In this document: piece by piece, positions 38,930 to 64,000 of the stretch
How the letters are laid out: each line of letters begins with the position of its first letter
How positions within the stretch are numbered: the stretch's first letter is position 1
Origin: Heterodontus francisci
Lineage: Eukaryota
NCBI RefSeq assembly: GCF_036365525.1
Contig: NC_090404.1
Location: forward strand, 4,402,001-4,466,000
DNA length: 64,000 bases
Reading direction: 5' to 3'
Program-made: the position numbers and the translations under genes
Notes under the pieces: generated by a model
What the model saw: the letters and a program-made list of their open reading frames with translations, nothing else
What the model was told of the DNA's origin: nothing
Databases searched by the model: none

Positions 38930-39382
38930 TAGTGCGGGGCTCATGGCGCAGAAATGCAAGGCGATGTTGGAGATCAGGGCATTGCCAATCGCTAGCTCAG
39001 TAATCTTGGCATCTTTTGTCAACATAGAAACAAACCAATTAATGATGTCGGTGTTCCTGTGTACATTCCCTCCATTAAGATGAAGCATATACTGTGCCGG
39101 CTGCCCAGCGTGCTGACTGCACCAGTACATATAAGTGTGAGAATCGTTTCTCTTTTCAAGCTACACAGTCGTGTGATGTTACTTTTCTCTTCAATTGTCA
39201 TTTCAAGGACAGTCTGTTCAATTGTGTCTTGGTGGTTCAATTATAAGAGAATATCAGAGTAATAGTCATGATTAGAAGCATTATCATCACCACCATCTCA
39301 ATGAACATAATTATCATCATTTGACCAATAATGAAACCTAGGTTGCAGCAGGGAAAATGCATTTTTGCTTGAAAGGAAACAT
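38930..39382 (-). pseudogene. TCR alpha/delta-type V pseudogene (inverted), with probable leader 39338-39382 and V exon ~38937-39242
   Basis: Two frameshifted ORFs join as LNHQDTIEQTVLEMTIEEKSNITRLCSL / YMYWCSQHAGQPAQYML...ELAIGNALISNIALHFCAMS. Acceptor mutated; degenerate heptamer CGCACTA; nonamer region replaced by LINE sequence. Confidence 0.8.
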
Positions 39383-40582: not shown

Positions 40583-41056
40583 ATTAAACTCTGCCTGACA
40601 CCACTTATTGTCCTGATCACAGGTCGGTACCATTATAAACTCCCTGCAACATTCGCCAATCATCATTAAATTTCCCATCTCCAGCTGCGGGTCACTTTCA
40701 CTTTATTATACTTCATCTAACATGCTGTGTGTCCGCTGTTTATTTTCAGAGATGGGTAACAGAGACTCAGGGCTCCAGTAAGAACAAGGAGTTGGATCAG
40801 TAAATTTAGCAATAATCTATAGTTGTTCTGCATGGTTTCACTTGCCAGCTGTAACCTGTTCTGGCATCACCAGTATCCACACCAAGCTCCTTAGTATCTG
40901 TTCAGAACCGATAGTCACGAAAATAAGGAAACGGCTCCCGGTTTTGAACACTTCAGCGGTAATCTCAACCGGATGCAAGGCACTTTTCTCCTGCCTATGA
41001 AAGGCTTGAGGATCACAGACAACGACTATTATTACTGCACCATAAGACCCACAGTG
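40583..41056 (+). pseudogene. TCR alpha/delta-type V pseudogene (leader 40583-40622, V exon 40750-41049)
   Basis: Leader (ATT instead of ATG)KLCLTPLIVLIT|gt; acceptor ttttcag|. Reads NLFWHHQYPHQAP*YLF...FSGNLNRMQGTFLLPMKGLRITDNDYYYCTIR. Perfect heptamer CACAGTG at 41050-41056, degenerate nonamer, several stops. Confidence 0.88.
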
Positions 41057-41933: not shown

Positions 41934-42400
41934 ATGTGCTTCCTACGTTTCTTACTGATGATACTGGTCTTGTTGTCGCATGAACCTATGTTTAAAAGAA
42001 AAGTGTGTCCTCCATTGGTTATATTCAGTCTTCTAATTTCGACTTCTGTGTATTGTTACAGGAATGAGTGGTGACGATTCAGTGTCCCTGGACCCACTTG
42101 AATTAACGGTTCAGGAAAGACGGGCGGTAATTCTGAACTTTAGTTACACGACAGCGTAGCCTGACTTAAATCTTTTCTGGTACATGCAGTATCTGAGGGA
42201 AGCTCCGAGATTTTACTGAGAACATGCAGCATGGTACAGGGGGATAAATCTCCAGATTTTCCAGATTCTGGTGAATTGGACAAAGAAAAGAAAACAGTTC
42301 CTTCAAAAGTCGACGGGGCTCTTGTCTCTGACTCTGCGGTGCGTTACTGTGTCCTCCGCCTCACACTGTCAGAGGAGCGCAGTCTGTCAGTACAAACATG
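41934..42400 (+). pseudogene. TCR alpha/delta-type V pseudogene with 23-RSS (leader 41934-41979, V exon 42062-42361)
   Basis: Leader MCFLRFLLMILVLLS with donor GT>AT. Reads DDSVSLDPLELTVQERRAVILNFSY..*..LFWYMQYLREAPRF / ...GALVSDSAVRYCVLR. First Cys lost, TAG at 42157, frameshift. RSS CACACTG(42362)-23 nt-ACAAACATG(42392). Confidence 0.92.
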
Positions 42401-43153
42401 TCAAAGGACTCTCACCTCCTCTCACTGAATCTGGATTGTTATCTGATAATGGAACACAAACCAAACTATGGAGATAAACACATGGGTCAATTTATAGATG
42501 GGTAGTTCATTAAACAGTTAGAAAGATAAATGGACAGTCTCCTCGCCTTCACTTTCTCCTTCAATGATCTCTTCCTCCTTTGTTTGAAAGTATCCAGCTG
42601 CTGCAGACAGGCGCCTGTGAATTCCGGCTGTGGAGTCTGTGAGTATAAAGCTCAGTGTGTTTCACAGCTCAGTAACGGGTTGGTTCTTGTTCGTTTGGGA
42701 GCTGAATGATGAGATAGTTGGACATTAGCACTTCAGTCATCACTCCGATTGCCCGACTGCAACATAACCAAGAGGTGGATCGGATCATGAAGAATATAAA
42801 ACAGTTAACTCTGGATATAACTTTAAATTAAACTGCGGAATTATAGCTTAGGGACACGGGTTCAAAGTATGAAAGGTCATTTCAGGACCGGTATCAGGAA
42901 ATTCTTCAGCAATCAATGCGTGGAATCAAGTTCCAGATGCAACAGAAGATGGTCAAACCTGGGAATAATTTCATAAAATGATGGATATTCCAAAGGCGAA
43001 GGTTGGAGCAGGATGGGGTTGGAGGCATGTTGGTGTTAAACAGTCTATCCTAAGAGTGGCAGAATTCCAACTCCCGCCCTGCATGATCCTGTGATCTTGT
43101 GATCAATCGCAGGAGTCGGCAATTTGTTTTGGACATGCAGTCGCTTGTAGTCA

Positions 43154-43169
43154 CCAGCAGAGGGCACTA
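43154..43169 (+). promoter_or_regulatory. CTCF-like binding site
   Basis: CCAGCAGAGGGCACTA matches the CTCF core; it lies between V segments. Confidence 0.65.
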
Positions 43170-44378
43170 AATGTCTTCACTGTGTTGGTGTCAATGTGGC
43201 AGCGACTGCAGCTTCAGTATTGAGTAACTTTACTGAAGAAGCGGATTGAAGAAAAGTTTCGGTAACAGAAACATTCATTTCAAATGGAAGTTGTTTTTAT
43301 CAATGTCATGATGAAGGAATAAAATATTATTACTAATGGCGATATTCTGCATTTTGTAAGAAGCCGATCACCACAGAATCACTCAGTCCATTTGTTGCGA
43401 CACTCCGCCACTCTCCTCAAAGCTGTCAATTATTCCCTATTGCATTCAAGTAAAAGGTGCTGGCTGTCTCGTTTATCTGCAGAACAACTGCAAACTTGTT
43501 ATGCTGGCTGTGGGAAATTCTAATGAGCAGTGCACAGCTCTTCTCGTGGAATTCAATGGCACAGATGCCAGGACAACATGAATTATTTTCCTCATGCACC
43601 AGCCTCACAGACTGGCTCTGTTAAAGGGCCAACATTGAGTTTTAACCCCGTCCAGTTCCCTGTTGTGAGAACAATTTCCCTGTTCACTGCTCTGATGTCA
43701 TCAATTCTGGATGAAAGGACCGAAGAGCTGATTGGATGAATTGCAGTACTAATGCACTGAGTGCTGATTGGATGAACTGGAGAATAAAGGATTTGTGATC
43801 TGATTGGACGAATTAAACAACAAAGGACCCGTGAGTTGACTGGATGTCACATGCTGTCCAGGCCAGCAATGGACCTATCGGGAGAAAGGCTGGATATCGA
43901 ACAGCATCTTCTAAAGGCCTGATGAAAACAATTCCAGCTTCAATCAGTTCAGTTCATATCAGCCCACAACTGTCTGAAAACGTGTTGGATGTTACTTTTT
44001 ATTTATTCCTCACAGCTGCAGCTCTCTTAACTGGGAAGTTCACAATTTGCACAAGGCCGCCTTTCACATCTTGATCATATAGTTCATCGGTCTGTTCCCT
44101 GAAAACAAGGGTAACAATCGATTGATCGGAAGTGAACAAAGCAATCCGGATCTACCTTGAGTCAACACTGAACACTGTTTGAGCAAACTCGACAAGCTCC
44201 CCCAATAAGAGAAATTGGAAGAGTTGAGCTGAGATTACAGGGGAATGGCAGACAGACATGGCCCTCCCCACCAGGGCTAATGACAGACACCGATAGACAC
44301 ACGAGTCTTACACCCACAGGCCGTTTGTCGGCTTCCCTTCACAATCGATCCCAGCACCTACCTGTTGCAGCTTCTGAA

Positions 44379-44839
44379 CTGTGGAAAGTGTATTTGTGTT
44401 TACCTGTCCTGATTTCTCAGTTAAGTATTGGGGGTGACGGGCTGATTCTCGGAGATAGACGTTGGTTAATTTGATATTGCTCTGTTCTTGCAGGATATTG
44501 TCGAGGAGACTCCGTTTCACAGACACCGGCTGTAATCACAGTAAGTGAAGGAGACGATGTTCGGTTGCACTGTGATTATACAACTACAAGCAGCAGCAAT
44601 CCTTACCTATTCTGGTACCGTTAGTATCCCAGTGGATACATGGAATATCTGCTGCAAAGAAACAAATACAGTGAGGACCGAGAAAGATTTCCAGAGGACC
44701 GTTTTTCAGCGGAGCTCGATGATTCGATCCGAACCATCCCACTGAAAGAATCTAAAACAGAACTGACAGACTCTGCGGTGTACTACTGCGCACTGAGACC
44801 CACAGAGACACAGAGCTGGGCTGATCCTGAACAAAAACT
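44379..44839 (+). pseudogene. TCR alpha/delta-type V segment, nearly intact (leader 44379-44424, V exon 44494-44800, 23-RSS 44801-44839)
   Basis: RYCRGDSVSQTPAVITVSEGDDVRLHCDYTTTSSSNPYLFWYR*YPSGYMEYLLQRNKYSEDRERFPEDRFSAELDDSIRTIPLKESKTELTDSAVYYCALR. One in-frame TAG at 44622-44624; leader starts with CTG. RSS CACAGAG-23-ACAAAAACT. Confidence 0.95.
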
Positions 44840-45019
44840 GTCAGAGAGTCTCTCAACATCACAGCAAGTTAGGGAAACATTGTGATTGGAGGCGAGTGTC
44901 TGCATTAGTGATTAGAACTTGTACTGTTAATGTTAATATACAGTTATCCTTTTTCCTGCAATGTTTCACTTTTCAAATAATGATCTAATTTCCTTTTAAA
45001 AGTAACGATTGAATCTGTC

Positions 45020-45900
45020 TCATATAAGCCCACAGACTCCCATAACTACCTCGACTACACTTCTTCACACCCTACCTCCTGTAAGGACTTTATTTTATTA
45101 TCCCAGTTTCTCGGTCTCCAAGGCATCAGTTCTGATGATGCAACCTTCGGCAACAGCGCTTCTGACCTGTTTTCCTCTTTCCTCAACACAGCATTCCCCG
45201 TACCATCCCACACCACCTCCCCCGCTCCACCCCCACAGCCACACTGTTGTTGACGGGGCCCTTCAACCGTGTCTGGCCTATTTCCCACACTTCTGCCCGC
45301 ACCCCTTCCCCTCCATCCCAGAACCGCGACAGGGTTCCCCTTGTCCTCACTTTCCACCTCACCAGCCTCCATATCCAAAGGATCATCCTCCACCATTTCT
45401 GCCACGTCCAGCGTGATGCCAATACCAAACGCAGCTTCCCCTCCTCTCCCATGTCAGCATTCCGAAGGGATCATTCCCTCCACGGCACCCTAGTCCACTC
45501 CTCCATTACCCCCAAAGGCCGTCTCCTTCCTATGGCTCCTTCCCATGCAATCACTGGAGGTGCAATACCTGCCCCTTTACCTCCTCTCTCCTCACTATCC
45601 ACGGTCCGAAACACTCCATTCAGAAGAAGCAGAGGTTTGCTTGTACTTCCTTCAATGCAGTATACTGTATTCGCTGCTCGCAATGCAGTCACCTCTGCAC
45701 TCGGGAGACCAAAGGCAGATTGGGTGACCGCTTTCGGGAACACCTCTGCTCAGTCTAAAAACATGCCCCGAGCTTCTTGTCGCTTGTCATTTCAATACCC
45801 GCACCCGCTCCCACCCATACAAAGTCCCGCCCCCTCCCACCCTCCAACTCCCCCCCTCCCCCCAACTCTGCTCTCTTGACGACTTCTCTGTCCTGGGCTT
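45020..45900 (+). mobile_element. Penelope-like element fragment (RT C-terminus plus GIY-YIG)
   Basis: SQNRDRVPLVLTFH..LHIQRII plus GIY-YIG remnants; paralog of 49390-50325. Confidence 0.85.
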
Positions 45901-45909
45901 GCAGCAGTG

Positions 45910-47710
45910 TTACGTGTGCTGTGGACAGAGTGGAACCAGTGGATGGAGCTTACTTAGGTTTCCAGAAGGCATTTGATAAGGTGCCACATCAAAGATTATT
46001 GCAGAAAATAAAAGCTCATGGTGTAGGGGGTTACATATTGACATGGACAGAAGATTGGTTAGCTAACAGCAACAGAGAGTCGGCATAAATAGGTCAGTTT
46101 CTGAATGGCAAGATGTAACGAATGGTGTGTCACAGGGCTCTGTGCTGGGGCCTCAACTTTTTACAATTTATATAAATGACTTCGATGAATGGACCGAAGG
46201 TATGGTTGCTCAATTTGCTGATGACACAAAAATGGCTGGAAAGTAACTTGCAAAGAGGACATAAGAAGGCTACAAAGGGATGTAGATAGGTTAAGTGAGT
46301 GGGATAAGATCTGGAAAAGTGTGCATAATGTGGGAAAGTGTGAGATTGTCCACTTTGGCAGGAAGAATATAAATGAAACATGTTATCTAAATGGTGAGAG
46401 ATTTCCGAGCTGTGAGATGCAGAGGGATCTTGGTGCCCTAGTGCATGAATCGCAAAAGGTTAGTATGCAGATACAGCACATAATTAGGAAAGCTAATAGA
46501 ATGTTATCGTTTAATTGAATACAAAAGTAAGCAGGTTATGCTTCAGCTATAAAGGACGTTGGCGTGACCACATCTGGATTACTGTGTACAGTACTGGTTC
46601 CTCATTTAAGGAAGGATGTAAATACGTTGGAGGCAGTACAGAGATGGTTTCCGAGATGAATACCTGGAATGGATGGGCTTTCTTACCAGGAAAGGTCCTG
46701 GGGAAAATTGATATACAGAGAGATTTGGGTGTTCAGGTCCATTGTTCCCTGAAGGTGGCAACGCAGGTCAATAGAGTGGTCAAGAAGGCATACGGCATGC
46801 TTTCCTTCATCGGACGGGGTATTGAGTACAAGAGTTGGCAGGTCATGTTACAGTTGTATAAGACTTTGGTTCGGCCACATTTGGAATACTGCGTGCAGTT
46901 CTGGTCGCCACATTACCAAAAGGATGTGGATGCTTTGGAGAGGGTGCAGAGGAGGTTCACCAGGATGTTGCCTGGTATGGAGGGCGCTAGCTATGAAGAG
47001 AAGTTGAGTAGATTGGGATTATTTTCATTCGAAAGACGGAGATGGAGGGGGGACCTGATTGAGGTGTACAAAATCATGAGAGGTTAGATAGCAAGAAGCT
47101 TTTTCCCAGAGTGGGGGGTTCAATTACTAGGGGTCATGAGTTCAAAGTGAGAGGGGAAAAGTTTAGGGGGGATATGCGTGGAAAGTTCTTGACGCAGAGG
47201 GTGGTGGGTGCCTGGAATGCGTTGCCAGCGGAAGTGGTAGACGCGGGCATGATAGCATCTTTTAAGATGTATCTAGACAGATACATGAATGGGCAGGAAG
47301 CAAAGAGATACAGACCCTTAGAAAATAGGCGACATGTTTAGATAGAGGATCTGGATCGGCGCAGGCTTGGAGGGCCGAAGGGCCTGTTCCTGTGCAGTAA
47401 TTTTCTTTGTTCTTTGTTCTTTGAAAGATAGGATGAGGTTGGCTTGCATCAGCTGGAACTTAGAGGAGTAAGAGGCGACTTGATTGAAACATATAATATC
47501 TTGAGGGGGCTTGACAGGGTGGATGTGGAAAGGATGGTTCCCCTTGTGGGAGAATCTCAAACTGTTACTGTTTAAAATTAAGGTGTCGCCCATTTAAGAC
47601 CGCGATGAGGAGAATTTTTTTCTCTCAGAGGGTCGGCAGTCTTTGGATTCCTCTTCCTCAAAAGGCAGTGGAAGCAGAATCTTTGAATATTATTAAGGTA
47701 GAGTTAGATA
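45910..47710 (+). mobile_element. Old CR1 with a nested young CR1 (46695-47422, GAAAG duplication)
   Basis: RT motifs. The nested copy is nearly identical by eye to 8555-9281, including its tail. Confidence 0.9.
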
Positions 47711-48269
47711 TTTTATTTATTTTCATCATTCGTTTTTTAACTATGTGTCTCCCCACTTTTTGTTCGTGTTTGTGCTTTTGGCTTGGGCTGTTAATTATTC
47801 TGTCATTTAATATCCTCTCTGCACTAATGCTTCGTCCTTCACCACACGATTGGCACTCTCTTTGCCTTTGCCCCATGACCTCCTTGTCTGTTAATCGCTG
47901 ACCATCTGTCCTATCAACACTTTCCCTTTTGTTCCCTTTACCCCCAACCCCGCTTTATTTGTATCTAAGCTATTACATTTCTAAACTTTGCCAATTCTGA
48001 TGAAAGGTCAGTCACATGAAACGTTAACTCTGCTTCTCTCTCCTCAGATGCTGAGTGCTTCCATCACGTTTTATTTTTATTAATGTTTTTGTGTCCAGCT
48101 GTTACTGACCCTCCCTCACACGGGCAACAGTTTCTCTTTATTCACTCTATCAAAATCTATTTTTTCTTCATATGTCACTCAGTGATCTTTTATTCTTTAT
48201 ATTGTATCCTGCTTTTGTTGGGATTTACTATTCACACATTCTCTAAATGTTTCTCTCTCTATCCTGCAG

Positions 48270-48614
48270 AGAGCGGCCTTGAAGGCATCACTCATCAACG
48301 AAAAGAAGATGTGACAGCTCGGGGAGGAGTGATCTCCACCATGACGAGCTCCTATACTGAGGTGACGAGAGTTTGCCTGGAATGGTACCGGGATGGTCTC
48401 TCCGTGGATCCGGAGAAATTCTCATCCACTGCACCGACGGGTTCATTGACAATTCGTCTTTTGCAACCCGGCGCTTCACCACATCTTTGGTCAAAAAATA
48501 CACGGCCGTCAGTGAAACAGTTTCACAGGTGGCAGCTGCCGATACCAGGAAATACTACTGAGTCTTAACACCGCACACAGCCGTGTAGGTTGGGAAAGAG
48601 CCTATACATAAACT
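48270..48614 (+). pseudogene. TCR delta/alpha-like V pseudogene with 23-RSS and non-canonical cysteines
   Basis: Acceptor cctgcag|. Reads ESGLEGITHQRKEDVTARGGVISTMTSSYTEVTRVCLEWYRDG / ILIHCTDGFIDNSSFATRRFTTS...VAAADTRKYY*. RSS CACAGCC(48576)-23-ACATAAACT(48606). Confidence 0.85.
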
Positions 48615-49389
48615 GAAGATGTAATGACAAGAATACTGTGTCAGTGAACTCGCGGTATCATTGTATTTCATGATCGCTACTGAGTGCAATGGTCCAATGG
48701 AGAAGCGTAACAATTCTTTCATCCATTTTTCCCTCAGTGTATCATAAACGGACAGATTGACAATTTTATCGAACATTGTGCACCCAAAGGATTTTATTTT
48801 TGTTGACCACAAATTACCGATATCTCGAAAACACTTGGACTCCCAAATTCCTTCATTCCTCCACAAGAGTCAGCGTCAGAATCAATGACACCATTTCTGG
48901 CACAGAATTCCACATTCATACTTCTTACTTTGTGATAAACTTCCTTTTACTTAAAAGTCAATCTTCTGCTGTTTGAAAGCTCACACTATTGGCTATCTTT
49001 ATTGTCGCTGTTTCCACAGGGACCAGCAGAGTTTCTTCTTTGCTTTGCATTGTTGCAGTCCATTTTACCAGATTGTGTTGATGAGCGGTCACCTCCTCCT
49101 GGGAATGCCCCGCCCACCCACCCCCAACACCTTGGATTCAGTCTCCAATCCTCTCACTGATCCTCTCCGCTCAAGACGACACCTGTCGGGACCCAGGAAC
49201 CTCCCGGCAGAAAGGAGGTTCTGTTTGGAATGACTCCGTGATTGACTGGGCAGAGGAGGACTGAAGCTCCCACAATTCACAGCAGCTAGCAAACGCCTGG
49301 GATGTCGCTGACAGTGACGTTTCAGTCAATGATATTGCATTTGCGAATGTGTGGGTCGTGAGCCATCTGACATAAGCAAACAAGACCTT

Positions 49390-50325
49390 CAAGTTTTTGA
49401 AAGCAAGAAATGCTGGAAATACTCAGTAGGTCTGGCAGCATCTGTGGAGAAGAAACAGAGTTAATGTTCACTGGAACGGACAGAGATGTGAGCTTGAGAG
49501 CGGGGGGACTGTTGAAATCGCAAGCAACCGGAAGCTCGGAGTCATGCTTTCGGGCTTGGCGGAAGTGTTCCACAACGCGGTCACCCAGTTTGCGTTTGGT
49601 CTCCCCAATGGAGAGGAGACCATATTGTGAGCAGCGAATACAGCATACCACAGTGAAAGAAGTATGAGTAAATCGCTGGTTCACCTGAAATGAGTGTTTG
49701 GGGCCGTGTATAGGAAGGAGAGAGGAGGTAAAGGGGCAGGTATTACACCTTCTGCGATTGCAGGGGAAGGTGCCTTGGGAAGGGGACGAGGTGGAGTGGG
49801 TAATGGAGGAGTGGACCAGGGTGTCGTGGAGGGAATGATCCCTTCAGAATGCAGACATGGGAAGGGAGGGGAAGATGCATTTGGTAGTGGCATCACGCTG
49901 GACGTGGCGTAAATGGCGCTGGATGATCCCTTTGAATATGGAGACTGATGGGGTGGAAAATGAGGACAAGGGGAACCCTGTCGCGGTTCTGAGAGGGGGG
50001 AAGGAGTGAGGGTAGGGGTGCGGGAAAAGGGCCGGACATGGTTGAGGGTCCTGTCAACCACAGAAGGCGGAATTCCTTGGTTGAGGAAAAGGGGAAGTCA
50101 TATCAGAAGCGCTGTCATGGAAGGTCGCATCATCAGAGAAGATCCATCGGAGACAGAGAAACTGGGAGATTGGAATCGAGTCCTTACAGGAGGCTGGCTG
50201 TGATGAAGTGTAGTCAAGGTGGCTGTGGGAGTCGGTGGGATTATAATGGATATTAGCAGATAGCCTATCCCCAAAGATGGAGACAGAGAAGTCGAGGAAG
50301 GGAAGGGCAGTGTCGGAGATGGACG
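49390..50325 (-). mobile_element. Penelope-like element fragment
   Basis: LPFLDFSVSI...HYNPTDSHSHLDYTSS; VCCIRCS..LLSIGETKRKLGDR..EH (GIY-YIG). Confidence 0.88.
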
Positions 50326-50369
50326 GTTTCCCATGATATTTCCTGAATCTGTAACTCTGCAATGCAGGA

Positions 50370-50616
50370 GCATCTCTGACGGAGCAGAAATACAAATCCC
50401 ACTCCCCCAACACTGCTGATCCAACCAATGACAAGAATGGAGCCGCGGCAGCACTCCCTCCAATAACACAATCGGTTCAGAGCAAGAGCAGCAAACGGAA
50501 GTTGTGGGCGAGGATGCCGCAGACTCAAAATTTGAGTGAAGTGTGAGGCGACACTCTGCTGCACTCGGAACTGATTGAGCGGGAATAGTGTCTGTTGAAT
50601 CTCCAGAATTCAGTGG
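50370..50616 (-). pseudogene. Highly decayed, internally deleted TCR V relic (inverted)
   Basis: LNSGDSTDTIPAQSVPSAAECRLTLHSNFESAASSP aligns by eye with FR1-CDR1 of the 44494 V. Ends SAVLGEWDLYFCSVRD (YFCxxRD). FR2 and RSS are not recognisable. Confidence 0.5.
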
Positions 50617-52899: not shown

Positions 52900-55800
52900 A
52901 TAGAGGAGCAACTAATCCGGAGGGAGGAGATTACTGCATTTAATATTTATAGTAGAAAGCTAGCGCTAGGGACCATATAGTTAATTGTAACTTTATTTAG
53001 TAAGGATTTAATAAGTATTTCTTTTAAATTAATGTATTAATTAGTGCTAGAAATGTCTGTTAGAGGGGTAAAGTGCTTCACCTGTGAGATGTGGAAGGTC
53101 CATGACACTTCCAGCATTGCGGACAACGTCATCTGCAAGAAGTGTACCCAATTGCAGCTCGTCACAGACCGCATGGATCGGTTGGAGCAGCAATTGGATG
53201 CGCTTAGGAGCATGCAGGTGGTGGAAAGCATCATAGACAGGAGTTTTAGAGATGTGGGTACACCCAAGGTGCAGGCAGATGGATGGGTGACCGCTAGAAG
53301 GGCAGGCAGTTAGTGCAGGAATCCCCTGTGGCTGTCCACCTCTCTAACAAGTATATCGTTTTGGATACTGTTGGGAGGGATGGCCTATCTGGGGAAAACA
53401 ACAGCAGCAGCCACAACAGTGGCACCACGGCTGGTTCTGTTGTTCAACAGGGAGAGACAAAGCGCAGAAGAGCATTAGTTCTTGGGTAGTCAATAGTCAG
53501 GGGCACAGATAGGCGCTTCTGAGGACGTGAAAGAGACTCTCAGATCGTATACTGCCTTCCTGGTGCCAGGTTCAATGATGTCTCTGAATGGGCAGGGGGC
53601 ATTCTGAAGGGGAAGGTGAACAGCCAGAGTTTGTGATACACACTGGTACCAACGACATAGACAGGAAGAGTGACAGGGTTCTGCAGGAGGAATAACTTCG
53701 GTAGTAAGTTAAAAAACAGGACCTCTCGGGTTGTAATTTCGGGATTACTCTCTGTGCCACGTGCCAGTGAGGCTAGAAATAAGAAGATAGTGCAACTGAA
53801 CACGTGGCTAAACAGCTGGTGTAGGAGGGAGGGTTTCAGATATCTGGATCATTAGGATCTCTTCCGGGGCAGGTGGGACCTGTACAAGAAGGACGGGTTG
53901 CATCTAAACTGGAGGGGCACAAATGTCCTGGCCGCAACTTATGCTCACGTCACTCGGGAGGGTTTAAACTCGTGTGGCAGGGGGGAGGGAACAAGAGCAG
54001 TTGGTCAGCAGGTGAAGCAACTGAGGGGGAACTAGTAAATAAGGCCAGTAAGACTGAGAGGAAGAGCAGGCAGGGAGATGTTGCTGAGCACTGCGGGACT
54101 GGTGGTCTGAAGTGCATTTGTTTCAATGCGAGAAGTATAACAGGTAAGGCAGATGAAATTAGAGCTTGGATTAGTACTTGATGTTGTTGCTATTACAGAG
54201 ATTTGGTTGAGGGAAGGGCAGGATTGCCAACTAAATGTTCCAGGATTTAGAAGCTTCAGGCGGGATAGAGGGGGATGAAAAAGGGGTGGGGGAGTTACAT
54301 TACTGGTTAAGGAGAATATCACAGCTGTACTGTGGGAGGATACCTCGGAAATCTCATGCAGCGAGGCATTATGTAGAGCTCAGGAATAGGACGGGTGCAG
54401 TCACAATGTTGGGGGTTTACTGCAGGCCTCCCAACAGCCAGCGGGAGAGAGAGAAGCATATATGTAAATAGATTTTGGAAAGATGTAAAAGCAACATGTT
54501 TGTTGTGGTCGGTAATTTAAACTTTCCCTATTTTGACTGGGACTCAATTAGTGCTAGGGGCTTGGATGGGGCAGAATTTGGAAGGAGCATCCAGGGGGGC
54601 TTCTTGAAACAATGTGTAGATTGTCCAACTAGGGAAGGGGCCGTACTGTACCTGGTATTGGGGAATGAGCCCAGCCAGGTTGTCGAAGTTTCTGCAAGGG
54701 AGCATTTCCGGAACGGTAGCCATAATTCCGTAAGTTTTAAGGTTCTTGTGGATAAGGATAAGAGTAGTCCTCCGGTGAAGGTGCTAAATTGGAGGAAGGC
54801 TAATTATAACAATATTAGGCAGGAACTGAAGAATTTAGATTGGGGGCGGCTGTTTGAGGGTCAATCAACATCTGGGAGTCTTTCAAACGTCAGTTGATTA
54901 GAATCCAGGACCGGCATGTTCCTGTGAGGATGAAAGATAAGTTTGGCAAGTTTTGGGTACCTTGGATAACGAGGGATATTGTGAGCCTAGTGAAAAAGTA
55001 AAAGGAAGCATTCGTAAGGGCGAGAAGGCTGGGAACATACGAAGCCCTTGAGGAATATAACGAAAGTAGAAAGCAACTTAAGCAAGGAGTCAGGAGGGTT
55101 AAAAGCGGTCATGAAAAGTCTTTGACAAACAGGATTAAGGAGAATCCCACGGCTTTATATACGTATATAATTGTAGCAGTGGAAGGGTGCTTTTCTGAAT
55201 GGAGGACTGTGACTAATGGTGTTTTGCAGGGATCAGCGCTGGGAGCTTTGCTGTTTGCAGTATATGTAAATGATTTGGAGGGAAATGTAGCAGGTCTGAT
55301 GAGTAAGTTTGCGGATGACACAAAGGTTGGTGGAGTTGAGAATAGTGATGAGGATTGTCAGAGGATACAGCAGGATATAGATCGGTTGGAGACATAGGCA
55401 GAGAAATGGCAGTTGGAGTTTAATCCGGACAAATGTGAGGTAATGCATTTTGGAAGGTCTAATACAAGTGGGAAGTATACAGTAATGGCAGAACCCTTAG
55501 GAGTATTGACAGGCAGAGAGATCTGGGCGTACAGGTCCAAAGATCACTGAAAGTGGCAACGCAGGTGGATAAGGTAGTCAAGAAGGCATATGGCATGCTT
55601 GCCTTCATCGGTTGGGGCATAGAGTATAAAAATTGGCAAGTCATGCTGCAGCTGTACAGAACCTTAGTTAGGCCACACTTGGAATATTGCATACAATTCT
55701 GGTCGCCATACCACCAGAAGCATATGGAGGCTTTGGAGAGGGTACAGAAGAGGTTTACCAGGATGTGGCCTGGTCAGGAGGGTATTAGCTGCCAGGAGAG

Positions 55801-56150
55801 GTTGGATAAACTCGTATTATTTTCACTGGAACGACAAGGTGGAGGGGTGACATGATAGAGGTTTACAAAGTTATGAGTTGCATGGACAGAGTGCTTCGTC
55901 GGAAGGTTTTTCCCAGGGTGGAAGAGTCAGTTACTAGACGACATAGGTTTAAGGTGCGAGGGGCAAAGTTTAAAGGGGATGTGCGAGGCAAACTCTTTAC
56001 ACAGAGGGTGGTGAGTGCCTGGAACCTGCTGCTGGGGGAGGTGGTGGAAGCAGGTACGATAGTGACGTTGAAGAGGCATCTTGACAAATGCACGAATAGG
56101 ATGGGAATAGAGGGATACGGTCCCCGGATGTGCAGAAGGTTTTAGTTTAG
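52900..56150 (+). mobile_element. Near full-length CR1 LINE (ORF1 zinc finger plus esterase; ORF2 APE/RT with an internal deletion at ~55170)
   Basis: CFTCEMW...CKKCTQLQL, NTWLNSWCRREGF, CICFNARS, FADD; many stops. Confidence 0.92.
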
Positions 56151-56394
56151 ACAAGCATTGTTCATTTTTCTTTGAATTGTGCCTCCTTCGTTGTCTAATA
56201 GGCTTCAGGATCAGGAAGTCATTCCCAGGGTTTCTGGGATGTATTCGATAGCCCCTTGAATGTGGGCTCCCTGTTGTGGAAAATGGACCCCAGGCTCTTG
56301 GGATAATTCCCAGCATTTATTCTTAATGGTCTATCGTTCCAGATATTCATTAGTCTTGAGGAATCATTCCCAGGGTTTATTGTCTCTCGTGTCT

Positions 56395-56600
56395 GTGTTA
56401 TATTTCTAACCTGGTCAGTGCCTGCCCTGGGAGCGTTTGCTGGTGCAGTGTAGAGGGAGCTTTACTGTGTATCTAACCCGGGCTGTGCCTGCCCTGAGAG
56501 TGTGTTTTGCGGCAGTGTGAAGGGAGCTATACTCTGCATTATCCCGTAAACTACCTATCCTGGGAGTGTTTGATGGACAGTATTCTTTCATATACTACAC
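56395..56600 (+). repeat. About three degenerate copies of a ~65-bp tandem unit
   Basis: The unit tatctaacc...cctgccctgggagtgttt...cagtgtagagggagcttta recurs. Confidence 0.75.
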
Positions 56601-57335
56601 TGCTCTTTAATGCAACCTGGCACCTGACTGTGACAGACCATGGGAGGTGCTCCTCTTCGCTGTGCGGCCATTCCGACCCTGGGCATTGGCATTTTGAGGC
56701 AGAAGGAAAGGTGGCTATATTCTGATGAGCCACTGGATGGCGCAGCAGCACCATCACCGAAAGACTTTTGGTTCAAACACAAACCAGACAGGACTGGTGG
56801 AAAACAGCTGTCAGGAAAAGGGAAAATGTGTAATCGGTAAAATGGAGCGTGTGGATGGGCCTTGGAGCAGGGAATTGAGCAAAGTCACGTTAGTCCATTT
56901 GTTACTCAAGATTTATTCACAATTTCAAAAAAAACATTTTACAGAAACATTTTTAAAGGGTCCAAAGTGAATTTAGCACCTGTGAGTCACATTGAGGACA
57001 AAACACATGCGATCTGAGCTGTAGACTACTTCTAAAATTGTTACAGATCAGAGAGAAAACAGGGGCTCAACATAAAGAGAAGGAAACAGTTGCAAATAAG
57101 GGATAGTTATTTATTTACAGATGAAATTCAAACTATTGTGAAACTCGAAGGTGCATAGACATTAGCGGTAAGATTATCTGACACAATTCAAAGAAAAAAA
57201 CGGAAACAATGTTTATGATCTTCTCAGCTACAGATTCTGAACCATAAACTGACGGCAATTTACTTTTACAGTTTGTTTGATAATACAGAGATGTTAAAAA
57301 ATAAGGAAAATCCAGGGCGGCCGAAATTCGATCGA

Positions 57336-57344
57336 TCACTTAAC
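57336..57344 (-). CDS. IGHM: IgM membrane exon TM2 (coding part VK*)
   Basis: cttttacag|GTT AAG TGA gives the canonical KVK cytoplasmic tail. AATAAA downstream at 57110-57115 and 56912-56917. Confidence 0.93.
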   Translation of the reverse strand, partial: VK

Positions 57345-57476
57345 CTGTAAAAGAGGGATAAAAGAATGAAGCAGAGATTTCGTGGTCTTGGACATTCATC
57401 TCAGAACTATGAAATTTTAGGGATTTGTTAAACAGCTTCATTTAATTTGAAATGTGAGTGGATTGAATATTCTCAC

Positions 57477-57604
57477 CTTCACCAGAGTGACGGCAGCGCT
57501 GTAGAAAATACTCAGGAAGAACAGGATGATGAATGTGGAAGCGGTTGTCCAGATGTTACCGCTCTCTTCCTCATTGTCTTCAATCCAGATGTGGCCTGAG
57601 TAAT
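57477..57604 (-). CDS. IGHM: IgM membrane exon TM1
   Basis: Manual translation [43 protein letters not shown] contains the conserved antigen-receptor TM motif. Donor |gtgag; in frame with the CH4 internal donor. Confidence 0.95.
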
Positions 57605-58149
57605 CTTCGAGTTTTTAGAGGAGAAATATATTTAGATCGTTCATTAATCCAGGATATAAGATTGTCAATTTGCACTCGCAGAGTTCTTCCTTAAGCCATT
57701 ATTTTGCTCTCTAATTTAATTTTCAGTTTGTATCCATTGTGAAGTTAATCACTCTCAGCAATCTACCTCTGTTACTAACCCCACAGCCATTCTTCCCATA
57801 TGATCCTCGTCCAGGCCCTGTTGGAAAATATGATATTTCTTCCTTCAGGGTCAGGCGCTATTCTCGTCTGGATCAATCTTGTTCTATCATTAGGGATATC
57901 GATGGAATTTTACTGATCAATATCGATAGTTTTGAGATTTTCATTGGTGCTGGGTAAGAGATTTGATGCGAGTTCTAATCTTGTTTATTTGTGATGGAAG
58001 TTGTTGGTCAATCATTAACTGACCTCACTTTCGAAGTGAAAACTTTGCTTCACTGTGTTTGTAGGTCCAACATGTATGAGGGAATATGTTGGAGAAGGTG
58101 CCCATTCAAACAGTGCATTTGAATGCAACTTTCACATATAGCCTGGTGC

Positions 58150-59090
58150 TTTTGTTTGTATGCTTTAATACATGTGTATGTGTGCATAAGTATCTGTTAC
58201 TTTGCATCACTCAGTGCGTGTCCATGGCTTGTGTGTGTGAGATTTAATGTATTTTTTAATGCGTTTCTTTGTGCACCCGCCTGTGAATGTCTCAATGTGC
58301 GTATTTATATCTTGATGCCTGTGTGTTGTGTCCCTGTATGTTAGTATGTGCTTATGTGCCAATGTGTATCAATGTGTGCTTTCAAGTGGCCGCGTGTGTG
58401 TGTATGTGCATGTGCGTGTGTATAAAATATATCATCCTTAATGTTTTGTCTTCATTCATCCATGTGTGTGCATGAGCATGATAATGTTTGTTTTTGTGTG
58501 TGGTTTGGTCCCCATGCGTGCTTCATGTTGTGAGCTTTTGTGTTGACAGATGTCTTTATGTTTTCCTGTGTGTCAATGTGTGTTCATGTTTCCATGTGTG
58601 CGTATGAGTTTGTTAATGTTTGTTTTTGTGTGCTTCTGTCCCCATAAGTGTGATAATGCGTCTGATTTTGTGTTGATGTCTACGTTTATGCATTAATGTG
58701 TGTGATTATGTGTACATGTGTGCTAATGTGTGTGTTATGTGCATGTTTTTGCATCCATGTGTGTGTCATAATGTTAATGTTGGTGTCTATTTGTGTGTGA
58801 GTGATCGTGTTAATGTGTCTGTTTAAATGTTTGTGTGCAGATGTGTTAGTCTGTTCATGTGCGAGTATGTTTCCATCTAGCTGTGTTTATGTCTATGATA
58901 ATGAAAGCTTTTCCGTCTATGTTTCTGTGTTTGTGAGACTGTACTAATGTGTACATTTATGTTTATTTTTGCGTGGGTGACTGTGAAGTGTTTACATCTG
59001 CGTTTGAGTCTGTTTGTGTGTGTAGGTGTAAGTGTGTGGTTGTGCATTTGAGTGTGTTTATGTGTGTGTTTTTGTCTGTGTGCCTGCGCA
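58150..59090. repeat. TG-rich low-complexity tract in the IgM CH4-TM1 intron
   Basis: Degenerate (TG)n. Confidence 0.85.
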
Positions 59091-59249
59091 TCTTTATTCT
59101 TGTTCAAAGTTTTACAGAGAATAAATAACCGGGTCTGACCCTGACGGTGTGCATTATGGAGAATATTCTTCACTGTTCTGTGCATAAATGTATTCTGTGC
59201 GAGATGTCATCTGACATCATCTGAATGACTGTAACAATGCAACTGATGG

Positions 59250-59460
59250 ATAAAAACAGAAGTTCTGGAAATACTCAGCAGGTCAGACAGCAGCTGTGGA
59301 CAGAGAAGCAGAATTAACGTTTCAGGTCGGTGCCCTTTTCACACACCTGAAATGTTAACTCTGCTTCTCTCTCCACAGATGCTGCCTGACCTGCTGAGTA
59401 TTTAAGCATTTTCCGTTTTTATTTCAGATTTCCCCCATCTGCAATATTTTGCTTTTATTT
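59250..59460. mobile_element. Inverted pair of Penelope terminal fragments (hairpin)
   Basis: Imperfect ~75-bp inverted arms around a ~17-nt loop at ~59328-59344. Confidence 0.8.
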
Positions 59461-60362
59461 CCATGAAACTGATGGGCCTCAGAATCATCAGGAACAGGAG
59501 ATGATTAAATCTTCAGCTAGATTTAGATGATTATGTTATTAGAATTTAACAGGGAAACCGTGAACGATATTACGTTACATAAATATATATCTTACAATCT
59601 GATTCCCATGTGGAAAGTTTAAAATCTTCGCACACTGCGCTCGAAGCCGACTTTGTACTGATGGCATTTGAGTCCATTTAATAGAGAGCAGGGGGAATGG
59701 GAGTATAAGGTTTACAAATGTCCTTGCCCCTTTTTCTGTTGTAGGAAATGTGGCGAGGAGCTGCAGTCAGTTCACAATTCTCTTTACCGTCTGTCTGTTG
59801 CAGAAGTACCGTTGCAGTGGATTCACAAGTACCCTTTCCTCTTCTCTGTTTGGGAAGTGGGGTACAGTGTTTTAGTAAATTCCTCTTCCCCCTCTTTCTG
59901 ATGGGGGATTTTGGGAAGACTTCGTATTCGTGTGTGGCCATCACTTCAGTTCCCAGTGCGCATGATGCTGCAACTAAAAACTGACCCTATTCTGAAGGGA
60001 TGGCCAACACGAGAAGCAGGTACACCGAGATCTAAATGCACTGCGTATTTTTGTTGGTAAGGAGAAATGTCCAGATTCCCCATCTCCTCCTCCCCGGCCC
60101 CCCACCCATGTCCCCCTCTAATGCTCCCCACCGCCTCCCCCTCCTCCAACGGGAGGAAAGTTGCTGAAATTCTTCCACAGAATCCAATAATGAATCAGGT
60201 TTACTCTGTGAATTAATATGTGCTGGAAACACTGGTTGTACAAGACTTGGGCCCGAGACCTGCAAATATCATGCTTTGATGAAAAGACCTACACTTAGCA
60301 AATGTGGGAAGCACAATTAATTGAGCTGTTGTGTATTTAAATCGCGATTGGAAGAAAAGGTC

Positions 60363-60381
60363 TTTATTGTGTTTTTTTATT
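60363..60381 (-). terminator. Secretory-mu polyadenylation signals (two AATAAA)
   Basis: AATAAA on minus at 60376-60381 and 60363-60368, 30-45 nt after the tailpiece stop. Confidence 0.8.
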
Positions 60382-60409
60382 TAAGAATTGAAATGCAATC
60401 GATAAATTC

Positions 60410-60804
60410 TCATTGACATGAATTAACGGTGTCCAACAGTGCAAGGGAAATGTTCACAAAACTCGGTTTACCGCTGGATTTATTAACTGTTCTGTTGATG
60501 ATCTTCAAGGGGATCGCTTCATGTCCCACCACACAGGAGTAAGAAGTGCCGCTGGCCCACTCCTCTGCTGCAATGGATAACAGGCTGTAGATGAAGAAGG
60601 AGCTCTTGTCGTTCTCCGCCATCACCTCGGTGTTCTTGTAGTTGCCGGGATTCACTGACTTGTCATTGACGGTCCACTTGACGAAGATCTCTCGGGGGGA
60701 GAAACCTCTCACTAAGCAGGTGAGGGAGAGGAACCTCTCAGCGGAGATTTCTTCTGCTGGGGGCAGGAGAACAGACACAGACGGTTCCCGCAGATCTTTC
60801 CATG
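60410..60804 (-). CDS. IGHM: IgM CH4 exon plus secretory tailpiece; an internal donor after 60472 gives the membrane form
   Basis: [19 protein letters not shown]...[17 protein letters not shown]...[11 protein letters not shown]...NKSS|[20 protein letters not shown]. The tailpiece has an N-glycosylation sequon (NIS) and a penultimate Cys. Internal G|GTAAAC donor. Confidence 0.97.
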
Positions 60805-61273
60805 CTGAAAAATTAAAATAAATGTCAATAAACTAGACAATTTCAGAGACAATGACACCGGTGGTTAAATGTGAGAGAAATTGTGAAGGTTTTCCTTTTC
60901 CTCTCTGGGGCCTGTGCTGTTTTCCAGCCGGTGCAGAGGCGCTACAATCCTGCTCGCCGAGAACATAAAGGATTAGACTGGAAAATTACATAGAACTTGC
61001 AGCACAGGAGCAGCTATTAGGAGGAGCTAGCCTATGCTGGTGTTTATGCTGCACACGGACCTCCTCCCACCTTACTTCAGCTCTTTCTATTCATTTCTCC
61101 ATTATCTACGTATCTAGCATCACCTGAAATGCATCACCTCTGGTCCCAGGGAGGTTCAATAGTGAATTACAATTAAATTATCAGCGTAATCCATTCAACC
61201 ACTTAATTGGGCCTTGCACAAACACCGGCAAGAAGCACAACCTCTGAGTTATTGCTTCAATCACATTGCTCAC

Positions 61274-61579
61274 CTTCCTTGTGGATGGAATCTCTGAGAG
61301 GAGTCGGCAGATCCTGATGGCTCACCACACAGGAGAACACAGCCTCACTCAGCCAGGCTTGTGTCGAGATGTCTACAGTGCTGATCACGCTATCGGGTTC
61401 CTCTCCGGGTTGGACGGCAATCTCTGATTTCAAAGGCTTCTGTTCTTGTGTCCAGGACACGTTGACACCATAAGGAGCATTAGACACGACGCAGGTTAAG
61501 GTGACCGTCGCCTTCAGTAAGACCTGTTCTATTGATGGTGGCAGTAGTTTAATTACTGGATGATTGCACTCGGAAGAAT
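61274..61579 (-). CDS. IGHM: IgM heavy chain constant exon CH3
   Basis: [43 protein letters not shown]...[21 protein letters not shown]. Acceptor ctacag|, donor |gtgag, 306 nt. Confidence 0.97.
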
Positions 61580-62977
61580 CTGTAGAACAGAAATGAGAGT
61601 CAAAGAAATCTCCATCTTCAGGATCAGGACGCGAGTATTTAACTATCACTTTCTTCAGGAGGGGAAAAACACCTTTCACTTCAACACTGTCGTTCATGGG
61701 AAGGGCAACGATTTGTAAAATCTGGGACATCCAAGCGGATCACATCTCTGCTGAATATAATGGCTCTGTCACCCCAGGACATGAGCTACACATGTAATTC
61801 ATACTGGCTCAAAACGAATGAAATTACGAATTTTAGGACCAACTGGAAACAAAGTTAATGTTCTGGTGCCTTGTCAGTATATTTGGGGAGATGAAAATGT
61901 TCAGCAACCAGACAGAGGAGGGGCGAAAGGTCGGTAAAATGCAGTCCCAAGGTTTTTGTGTGGTGTGGAATAATTCGCAATACTGGACGAGATAGTTTTC
62001 TAATATCTGCCACGAGTGAGTATTTCTCATGTGTCGGCCTGGAGTTAGAAGGCGATCTGACCACAGGACTGTAATAAGAACATAAGAATAAGAGTGGGCC
62101 ATTCATCCCCTCGAGCACGTTCCGCCATTCAATTGCACGATGGCTGAATTGTATCTTAATTCTGTTTACCCATATATAACCCTTAATACCCTTACCTGTC
62201 AGAAATCTATCACTCACAACATTAAAATTTTCAATGGATGTCAAGCTTCTAAAGTGAATTGGGGGTGAGAATTCCAGATTACCACTATCTACTGTGTGAA
62301 TACTCCCTTCCTGATATCATTCCTGAATGACCATGGTCTAATCTGAAGGTTATGCCCCCTTGTTCTGAAGTTCCTCACCAGAGGAAATATTTTTCTCCAT
62401 TGACTCCATCAATTCCAGTAAACATCTTAACCACCTCAATTAGATCACCCTTTAATCTTCTCTACTCAAAGCAATACCAGTTTGGCCTGTGAAACCTGTC
62501 CTCATAACTTAACCCGATCAGCCCCGTTATCATTATGGTCAATTCTTGTTGCACCACTCCCAAGGCCAATACATTCTTCCTGTGCTCTGCAGTCCAGAAT
62601 TGAACACAGTTTTCTAAAGAGGGTAGATGCTCTTTCTGGCACCTGATTCCGAGGCCGTTACCAAGAAAGGGTTCCAGATGCCGATTGCTGCTCCGTGTAT
62701 GATTAGCCCATTCAGGATAAAGCTGATATACAGGCCACCTCACTCACTATATAACATCACAGTAGAGCTAAACATTCTTTCATGATGTGATGACATGTTG
62801 AACCGTGAGCAATCCTAATTTCTAATTTCTAAATCCTAAACTCACAGCGAAATGACACATAAAAACTGCACGATGGCGATTTAGAAATTGTTCTTTGTAC
62901 AAACTCCAATAAATTCCTGACTTTCAGTAACATGGAGTACAGAAAGATGTGGAGTTTCCTGGGACTGTGCCTCTTAC

Positions 62978-63295
62978 CTGGAGATCCGGTGATGTTTCGG
63001 CTTTGGGTGACCGCTTGATGGGAGACCTGGCAGGTATAGACCGTGTTGGTGAACCATTCCCGAGCGGGGACTGTCAGCCGACTGGTCGCTGAGAAGTTCC
63101 CGTTCGTTTCACAGGCGGGAGAGGTGACGAAGCCCGATTCCATGGGATGTCCATCCTTCAACCAACTCACGGTTATTGCTTCTGGATGGAAATCGATGAT
63201 TGAACACACGACAGTCGCAAATCTGCTGCTTCTGATTTCTTCACTGGAAGTCTGGGTGAGGATAACAGTTGGATGGACGATGTCACCTTTACAAT
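62978..63295 (-). CDS. IGHM: IgM heavy chain constant exon CH2
   Basis: [20 protein letters not shown]...[21 protein letters not shown]...[20 protein letters not shown]. Acceptor cttgaag|, donor |gtaag, 318 nt. Confidence 0.97.
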
Positions 63296-63507
63296 CTTCA
63301 AGAAAAAACATGTTAGACATTTCGAGAAGAAATTAATAACTAATACAAACTGTTCTTATATTTTAACAGGTTATTTGCATCAAGCAGGCACTAACTGATG
63401 TTTCCAGCGGTCTGAACTGTGCACAACACTCGAAATGTGGAATAGCCAAAGTTCTACACAAGATCCGTCGAGCTTTTCTGTTTTTCCACAGTTTCCACAA
63501 CACTAAC

Positions 63508-63804
63508 CTGGAATTTCCTTGATCCAGAGCGACTCTCCGCGTCGAACCTCGCAGTAGATTTTGCTGCTTCCCACCTCTGACTCGGTGATGGTTAACTGGC
63601 TGCTCAGGGTGTAGGTTCCCTTCTTGTTCAGCACTGACGGGTAAGTCTTCAAACCAGTGGTGATCGGTTCTTCACCTTTCTTCCAGGAAACGCTGGTGAT
63701 TTGGGGGATGTAGTCCATCGCCAAACAGCCGTAGGCCATGGAGCCGTCGGTGTTGGGTTGTTCACAGGAGCACAGGCCGTAAAGGGTTGGGGGAGACGGT
63801 GTCG
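63508..63804 (-). CDS. IGHM: IgM heavy chain constant exon CH1
   Basis: [32 protein letters not shown]...WKK...[17 protein letters not shown], a C1-set Ig domain. Acceptor ttcctag| and donor |gttag, phase 1, 297 nt. Confidence 0.97.
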
Positions 63805-64000
63805 CTAGGAAAGAATGGCAAATTGAACAAGTTAGACTGTGATTCATGCTTATTAAATAACCAGACATCTCGCAATTCGACTCCAGCTGGAAACTGATTC
63901 CAACATTTTCCGATTAAAACCTTCATCCGCATTTGAGCTGCGATCAGTTACATCATTTGGTGATCATCACCTGTCGGTCCCCTGGTCAGGAACACACCTC

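What the first reader, a model, noticed from the sequence alone, without database searches (positions are those of the whole stretch)
42362..64000. Geometry allows inversional TCR-V to IgH-D-J-C-mu joining
Seen: plus-strand Vs with 23-RSSs at 42362, 44801 and 48576 face a minus-strand IgM. Established: shark IgH D segments carry a 5' 12-RSS, which is 12/23-compatible. Inference: RAG joining of a plus-strand TCR V to this cluster's D would invert the intervening DNA and put V-D-J-C-mu in one orientation. That would be a TCR-V antibody heavy chain, the mirror image of IgHV-TCR delta chimeras. The Vs in this window are defective, so products would be non-productive unless intact Vs lie further left. 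The cluster's VH could likewise feed TCR delta.
Basis: inference. Interest (0 to 1): 0.7.

Follow-up and report, generated by a model that had tools for sequence, protein, structure and literature searches.

The report
Fossil antibody–T-cell-receptor join in shark
The broken T-cell-receptor pieces in this shark window face an antibody gene in the orientation needed for an inversion join but would give no working protein, yet 2.2 million bases away the same chromosome carries an exact seam between an antibody D signal and a T-cell-receptor V signal, likely left by such a join in an ancestor's germ line.

Summary
Geometry confirmed. The V at 44801 (23-RSS) and the 5' 12-RSS of IgM D1, 27.3 kb away just beyond the window, point the same way, so a RAG join would invert to V-D-J-Cmu. 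But the window is one of 12 tandem units inside the TCR alpha/delta V region; TCR C genes lie 0.9-1.2 Mb left. No copy examined of the three Vs is complete, and the one rearranged transcript seen for the 44801 family uses J-alpha. So no TCR-V antibody is expected from this window. Unexpected: two exact signal joints at an IgM D1 5' RSS stand in the assembly. One is a D1-J inversion in a sister unit 150 kb left. The other, at C34:6.70 Mb, fuses D1's 12-RSS to the 23-RSS of a TCR V family and leaves an intact orphan VH; neither side has an unjoined parent and the coding joint is absent. This likely records the proposed reaction in the germ line. My searches found no paper or earlier scan note on it; four key papers were not held.

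The parts
38939..39130 (-). decayed TCR alpha/delta-type V remnant
   Evidence: tblastn E 3e-8 to a neighbouring TCR V
40844..41038 (+). decayed TCR alpha/delta-type V remnant with a stop
   Evidence: tblastn E 3e-9
42061..42361 (+). TCR alpha/delta V pseudogene 'V42' (stop and frameshift)
   Evidence: translation; broken in 12 of 12 array copies
42362..42400 (+). degenerate 23-RSS of V42 (1+3 mismatches)
44379..44424 (+). likely leader exon of V44, without ATG at the expected start
   Evidence: position inferred from leader length of neighbouring Vs
44495..44800 (+). TCR alpha/delta V pseudogene 'V44', one in-frame TAG
   Evidence: named relatives are TCR alpha V; V-set; open sister copy groups with a shark TCR alpha V, 97/92
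44801..44839 (+). near-consensus 23-RSS of V44; same orientation as the IgM D1 5' 12-RSS 27,315 bases to the right
48270..48575 (+). V pseudogene 'V48' (frameshifts, stop); its acceptor is used in a spliced sterile transcript of the leftmost unit
   Evidence: (broken in 11 of 11 copies found)
48576..48614 (+). degenerate 23-RSS of V48 (2+2 mismatches)
57330..57608 (-). IgM transmembrane exons TM1 and TM2
60410..60802 (-). IgM CH4 with secretory tail, open
61275..61577 (-). IgM CH3, open
62979..63293 (-). IgM CH2, open
63509..63804 (-). IgM CH1, open; its J, D2, D1 and VH lie 7.5-9 kb beyond, outside the window (L001)

Best explanation
The window is one of twelve tandem copies of a unit of broken, inverted TCR alpha/delta V segments plus an IgM cluster inside the TCR alpha/delta V region; RAG likely can join a TCR V 23-RSS to the IgM D1 5' 12-RSS as a rare by-product of this interleaving, but from these Vs the product would be non-productive. 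Shown: orientation and 12/23 match; broken Vs; J-alpha as partner in the one junction seen; two exact signal joints at D1 5' RSSs in the assembly, one with J (inversion, both joints kept) and one with a TCR V RSS (C34:6.70 Mb, orphan VH left, coding joint missing). Inferred: both are RAG products formed in germ cells and inherited; the 6.70 Mb event was either an inversion from a back-to-back block like its sibling at 6.81-6.89 Mb with later loss of the TCR V-D-J-Cmu half, or a deletion that put that half on a lost circle; similar joins likely occur at low rate in lymphocytes.
For: 12 units, CH1-CH2 98-100% identical, one V44 each. TCR alpha C at 3.184 Mb, J-alpha, two TCR delta D-J-C sets at 3.30-3.46 Mb. 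V44 has stops in 11 of 12 copies; the open one has no ATG leader and an in-frame stop upstream. A V44-family contig runs into a J found at C34:3218.2 kb among the J-alphas. Unit at 4.25 Mb: heptamer-to-heptamer joint, whole D1 inverted onto whole J with one added base fitting a P nucleotide; DNA run X3 has 61- and 63-base contigs across both seams, 0 mismatches, depth 8-9 against 41-116 for shared contigs. 6.70 Mb: found by two independent patterns (controls 0 and 1); left side is VH, VH-D1 intron and D1-type RSS; right side is 96% identical over 169 bases, RSS included, to the flank of the unrearranged V at 6856305, collinear at about 89-95% along some 33 kb; that V falls outside the VH clade (98/92) and with TCR alpha-type Vs (90/79, weak). 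No parent for either side: best non-self intron 84%, 5 of 5 family Vs unjoined.
Against: No TCR V-D coding joint exists in the assembly, so the product itself was never seen. Published data say shark IgH rearranges only within a cluster (PMC2435157 abstract; PMC5192425 passage). The 6.70 Mb seam was not checked against reads, and sits in four 99.9% identical inverted copies around a 13-base gap, some of which may be assembly duplicates. The X3 contigs have only 29-30 letters on the shorter side, under the tool's 31-letter rule for bridging, and come from one sample that may be the assembly's source. Inversion versus deletion at 6.70 Mb is undecided.
Confidence: 0.72

Rival explanations
1. Programmed pathway: intact TCR Vs elsewhere in the region are joined to IgM D-J-Cmu in B cells and give real TCR-V heavy chains, the mirror image of IgHV-TCR delta.
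For: By my count 119 of the 150 V matches scored lie right of the array (5.48-13.88 Mb) on both strands, most without stops; each would leave a chromosomal coding joint (deletion or inversion). Array VH exons are open in 12 of 12 units, and the window's C exons are open. The 6.70 Mb seam shows the two RSS types can be joined. The leftmost unit's V44 appears in a spliced unrearranged transcript, so it is likely accessible.
Against: None of the array V copies examined is complete. The one junction seen goes to J-alpha. Within-cluster rule and no IgH transcripts in thymocytes (PMC2435157 abstract and passages). A TCR alpha V on Cmu would have to pair with a light chain V (inference; untested).
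Confidence: 0.1
2. Pure coincidence of layout: the facing orientation is duplication debris, RAG never synapses these pairs in lymphocytes, and the 6.70 Mb seam is a one-off germ-line accident without consequence.
For: 12-fold duplication carried dead Vs along; Vs lie on both strands over 10 Mb, so some facing pair is inevitable; only one Ig-TCR seam in 6 Gb by three patterns.
Against: The seam proves synapsis at least once; thymocytes rearrange most IgH clusters partially (PMC2435157), so D RSSs are open where TCR alpha/delta Vs are active.
Confidence: 0.3
3. The two signal joints are somatic lymphocyte events or assembly artefacts.
For: Repetitive array; gap and near-identical inverted copies at 6.70-6.73 Mb; read support only from one sample and only for the 4.25 Mb seams.
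Against: Base-exact heptamer fusions with 12/23 spacers are not an expected assembly error; the 6.70 Mb seam has no unjoined parent on either side and its flank carries its own 1.5 kb insertion relative to the sibling; depth 8-9 of the 4.25 Mb seam contigs fits one genomic copy rather than a rare clone.
Confidence: 0.08

Closest known systems
IgHV-TCR delta trans-rearrangements of nurse shark (Criscitiello 2010, Deiss 2019; seen only as cited in PMC5931798, PMC6795676, PMC12227049 passages)
   Same: Ig and TCR segments joined by 12/23-compatible RSSs on one chromosome; VH-like Vs lie within 80 kb of D-delta here.
   Different: Known chimeras put an Ig V on TCR D-J-C and are somatic and expressed. 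Here the partners are reversed (TCR V RSS with Ig D RSS), and the evidence is an inherited signal joint without product.
Germline-joined Ig genes of cartilaginous fish (PMC2193156, PMC2193153, PMC5192425 passages)
   Same: RAG-type joints fixed in the genome beside unjoined paralogs; VDD-J clusters also seen here at 6.763 and 6.831 Mb.
   Different: Described cases are coding joints within one Ig cluster, plus one hybrid-joint inversion between D1 and D2. PMC2193153 lists germ-line intercluster signal joints as a hypothesis not then backed by shark data. Here: retained signal joints, one by D1-J inversion and one between Ig and TCR.
Elasmobranch antigen receptor complex (PMC12227049, section 6 read)
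   Same: IgH clusters linked to TCR alpha/delta, with TCR-type V exons between IgH clusters.
   Different: That section reports linkage, not a 12-unit tandem array or Ig-TCR junctions in the genome.
Human inv(14) IgH V-TCR alpha fusions and TCR interlocus hybrids (titles in the reference list and abstract of PMC2191748; listing of PMC2188320)
   Same: RAG joining across receptor loci on one chromosome by inversion.
   Different: Somatic, mostly in tumours or rare lymphocytes; Ig V on TCR C (by title); loci far apart rather than interleaved.

Membership tests
RAG substrate pair V44 x IgM D1 | 12/23-compatible RSSs near consensus | tested here: met
   23-RSS 1+1 mismatches; D1 5' 12-RSS 0+2
RAG substrate pair V44 x IgM D1 | same orientation, giving inversion with V-D-J-C collinear | tested here: met
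   both read on + strand, 27,315 bases apart
Functional TCR-V heavy chain from this array | complete V with ATG leader and open exon | tested here: not met
   V44 0 of 12, V42 0 of 12, V48 0 of 11 found
Functional TCR-V heavy chain from this array | TCR V-D-J-Cmu junction in DNA or RNA | tested here: inconclusive
   16 contigs laid, 1 junction, to J-alpha; contigs cannot show absence
Germline RAG-joined shark receptor genes | exact heptamer-to-heptamer signal joint obeying 12/23 | tested here: met
   C34:4252003/4 and 6700551/2
Germline RAG-joined shark receptor genes | reciprocal coding joint with end processing | tested here: inconclusive
   present at 4.25 Mb with one base fitting a P nucleotide; absent for 6.70 Mb
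Germline RAG-joined shark receptor genes | present in non-lymphoid DNA and inherited | tested here: inconclusive
   single-copy-like depth in one DNA run of one sample; no unjoined parent at 6.70 Mb; no second individual tested
IgHV-TCR delta trans-rearrangement (this cluster's VH as donor) | open VH with 23-RSS and D-delta with 5' 12-RSS in cis | tested here: met
IgHV-TCR delta trans-rearrangement (this cluster's VH as donor) | VH-D-delta-J-delta-C-delta transcripts | not tested
Elasmobranch antigen receptor complex | IgH clusters linked to TCR alpha/delta with TCR Vs between clusters | tested here: met
Elasmobranch antigen receptor complex | linkage to PSMB5, UrIg2, IgW, IgNAR | not tested
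   not searched

The most novel reading that the evidence does not exclude
RAG joins TCR V segments to IgM D segments across the interleaved shark locus, in germ cells as well as lymphocytes. The germ-line version strips an IgM cluster down to an orphan VH with intact leader, frame and 23-RSS inside the TCR V region (C34:6.70 Mb), a direct route to the VH donors of TCR delta, while the reciprocal TCR V-D-J-Cmu gene is a TCR-V antibody heavy chain that can be made from intact Vs right of the array.
Probability: 0.25. Interest if true: 0.85.

Novelty: new variant of a known kind. Interest (0 to 1): 0.62.

Why it matters
Shark IgH clusters are described as rearranging only within themselves, and Ig-TCR chimeras only as Ig V on TCR C. 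An inherited signal joint between an IgM D and a TCR V would be direct sequence evidence that RAG reshuffles Ig and TCR loci in the germ line, a step long proposed for the evolution of receptor loci, and it suggests how orphan VH segments get into TCR delta loci. Both seams are single-PCR testable. The window's own Vs, by contrast, are ordinary dead passengers.

Tried and rejected
Longer-protein search with V44: 80 hits, none with an Ig C1-set annotation marking a V-Cmu fusion; weak by the tool's own warning. Pfam PF09291 did not find TCR alpha C; a shark TCR alpha C stretch did. No RNA holder was listed on record for the VDJ stretch; runs X1, X2, X7, X9 are guessed RNA, one sample, one study, contigs only. 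No V44-to-IgH D/J join among 16 contigs (15 shown): not evidence of absence. Search for the TCR V-D1 coding joint: none, 5 of 5 family members unjoined. The IgM at 6.762-6.781 Mb was rejected as the missing half: it has its own VH joined to DD and is about 79-84% like the sibling block, against 88-90% for the orphan VH region. Pattern hits on C40, C4, C13, C30 and C32 lack a second RSS or were not followed. The 23-RSS-like site at window 3874 recurs in each unit with no V beside it. Reinsertion of an excised circle (PMC1820826, listing only) was considered for 6.70 Mb; long collinear flanks make it unnecessary but do not exclude it. PMC3222143, PMC7039070, PMC7909615 and PMC4874517 were not held, so a published TCR V-Cmu observation there cannot be excluded.
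Full report
Observation. The three plus-strand V ends and the minus-strand IgM are at the stated places. Only the 44801 RSS is near consensus (1+1 mismatches); 42362 has 1+3 and 48576 has 2+2. The window is G000:C34:4402001-4466000. The cluster's J, D2, D1 and VH lie 7.5-9 kb beyond CH1: D1 has a 5' 12-RSS at C34:4474116 reading on the plus strand, like the V44 23-RSS 27,315 bases to its left. Same-orientation 12/23 signals join by inversion (established V(D)J rule), and the product would read V-D1-D2-J-Cmu. The geometry is right.

Context. CH1-CH2 has 12 minus-strand copies at 98-100% between 4.006 and 4.841 Mb, and V44 has 12 plus-strand copies between 3.987 and 4.819 Mb: a tandem array of 71-85 kb units. 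TCR alpha C lies at 3.184 Mb (minus), J-alphas follow, a TCR delta C-J-D set lies at 3.30-3.344 Mb (minus) and an inverted one at 3.443-3.462 Mb; the alpha and delta labels rest on similarity to P0015, on segment layout and on my recall of these families. TCR-type Vs occur on both strands from 3.68 to 13.9 Mb among IgM clusters (150 of 1357 candidates scored). The window Vs are thus inverted TCR alpha/delta Vs whose ordinary partners lie left. Such interleaving is published for other sharks (PMC12227049, section 6 read).

Are the Vs usable? V44 has stops in 11 of 12 copies; the open copy at 3.987 Mb has no ATG at the leader and an in-frame stop upstream. V42 is broken in 12 of 12 and V48 in 11 of 11 copies found. 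Of six plus-strand Vs left of the array examined, two are open but VH-like (tree), one TCR-type exon is open with a poor RSS, three are broken; 3.49-3.826 Mb was not fetched. By my count 119 of the 150 matches lie right of the array, and these would also give chromosomal coding joints with an IgM D1.

Expression. Sixteen contigs from four guessed-RNA runs of one sample were laid on V44 at 80% likeness (15 shown). One paralog-type contig runs into a J that maps to C34:3218.2 kb among the J-alphas. Several run through the unrearranged RSS; one continues from a GT donor into the V48 acceptor of the leftmost unit, a spliced sterile transcript. None joined IgH D or J, which contigs cannot show to be absent.

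First seam. Of 12 units, 11 keep V-D1-D2-J; the unit at 4.25 Mb has a 799-base inversion with an exact signal joint (D1 5' 12-RSS to J 23-RSS) and whole inverted D1 on whole J plus one base that fits a P nucleotide. DNA run X3 holds 61- and 63-base contigs over the two seams without mismatch at depth 8-9, against 41-116 for its other listed contigs; they fall 1-2 letters short of the tool's bridging rule, and all runs are one sample, possibly the assembly's source (32 pieces shown, 1432 not). So this very RSS class has been used by inversion in this array.

Second seam. Genome-wide patterns for fused RSSs gave 6, 6 and 8 matches (controls 0, 1, 1); besides the 4.25 Mb seam, the only ones that I found to have both a 12 and a 23 signal are four copies at C34:6.700-6.730 Mb. 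Left of the seam: an IgM VH with ATG leader, open exon and its own 23-RSS, the VH-D1 intron (best non-self match 84%, to array units) and a D1-type 12-RSS. Right of it: a 23-RSS and flank 96% identical over 169 bases to those of the unrearranged V at 6855999-6856304, with homology at about 89-95% along some 33 kb. That V is a V-set domain, best matched by TCR-type Vs (40%, E 8e-25, against 34%, E 3e-8 for the window's VH) and placed outside the VH clade (seven broken Vs left out of the tree). No Cmu lies in 6.68-6.75 Mb and all 5 members of that V family are unjoined, so the coding joint is not in the assembly. With no parent for either side, a somatic read is unlikely. The sibling block at 6.81-6.89 Mb holds IgM and this V back to back, 26 kb apart, which is inversion geometry; that needs later loss of the coding half. 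A deletion from a tandem arrangement explains the loss at once but needs a prior local inversion. I cannot decide. The four copies are 99.9% identical around a 13-base gap and may be fewer in reality.

Mechanism. Shown: compatible signals, dead Vs, two signal joints. Inferred: RAG made both in germ cells; interleaving lets TCR V and Ig D signals meet; the same likely happens rarely in lymphocytes, above all thymocytes, where most IgH clusters are partly rearranged but not transcribed (PMC2435157, abstract and passages). From this array the product would be non-productive. The VH-to-delta route is open on paper (deletion, 1.13 Mb; inversion, 1.03 Mb), but a separate clade of VH-like Vs (97/99) sits within 80 kb of the D-deltas; use of the array VH was not tested.

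Known and new. Germ-line joined Ig genes, IgHV-TCR delta chimeras and the linkage are known (passages of PMC2193156, PMC2193153, PMC5192425, PMC5931798, PMC6795676, PMC12227049; PMC13433984 and PMC2191748 passages added only general rules and titles). PMC5192425 states that shark V(D)J joining stays within clusters and is deletional; PMC2193153 lists germ-line intercluster signal joints as a hypothesis. Searches showed no report of a TCR V-Cmu chain or of a germ-line Ig-TCR signal joint in a shark, but I read listings and passages only, no supplements, and four primary papers were not held. Scan notes: nothing near, by sequence or by words; 8 of 164 genome notes were shown, none on these seams.

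Verdict. Observation confirmed; interpretation partly supported. Interest 0.62; new variant of a known kind.

Noticed in passing
L033:3205-4005 (C34:4251205-4252004): D1-J inversion with both joints kept. The cluster could still assemble V to inverted D2 to inverted D1-J under 12/23; its VH has Leu in place of the conserved framework-2 Trp.
   Followed up: yes
L083:97-720 (C34:6700096-6700720) and copies at 6713828, 6716874, 6730146: Orphan IgM VH followed by a D1 12-RSS x TCR V 23-RSS signal joint, in an inverted-repeat structure around an assembly gap.
   Followed up: yes
L056-L058 (C34:3443365-3462000): Second, inverted TCR delta-like D-J-C set facing away from the first, with a diverged C exon and a 5-base D.
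   Followed up: partly
L048-L054 (C34:3363751-3422591): Cluster of VH-like V segments without D-J-Cmu next to the D-deltas, forming their own clade; one more distant VH-type V at 3376845.
   Followed up: partly
L021 (C34:3987344-3990766): Spliced sterile transcript from the unrearranged V44 through its RSS into the V48 exon.
   Followed up: partly
L105 (C34:6762943) and L112 (C34:6830580): Germ-line joined VDD-J IgM clusters; the second has stops in V and C exons.
   Followed up: no
C34:4.54-4.85 Mb (L008-L009, L026-L029, L034-L037): Units about 150 kb apart are nearly identical in pairs over the parts fetched, a recent two-unit duplication or an assembly duplicate.
   Followed up: no
window 3874-3912 (+): 23-RSS-like site with a perfect nonamer but no V beside it, repeated about 5 kb upstream of VH in most units.
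   Followed up: no
window 44780 equivalent in a V44 paralog (run X2, X7): A contig of depth 275 leaves the V exon before the second Cys into unidentified sequence, possibly a cryptic splice; target not found in fetched DNA.
   Followed up: partly
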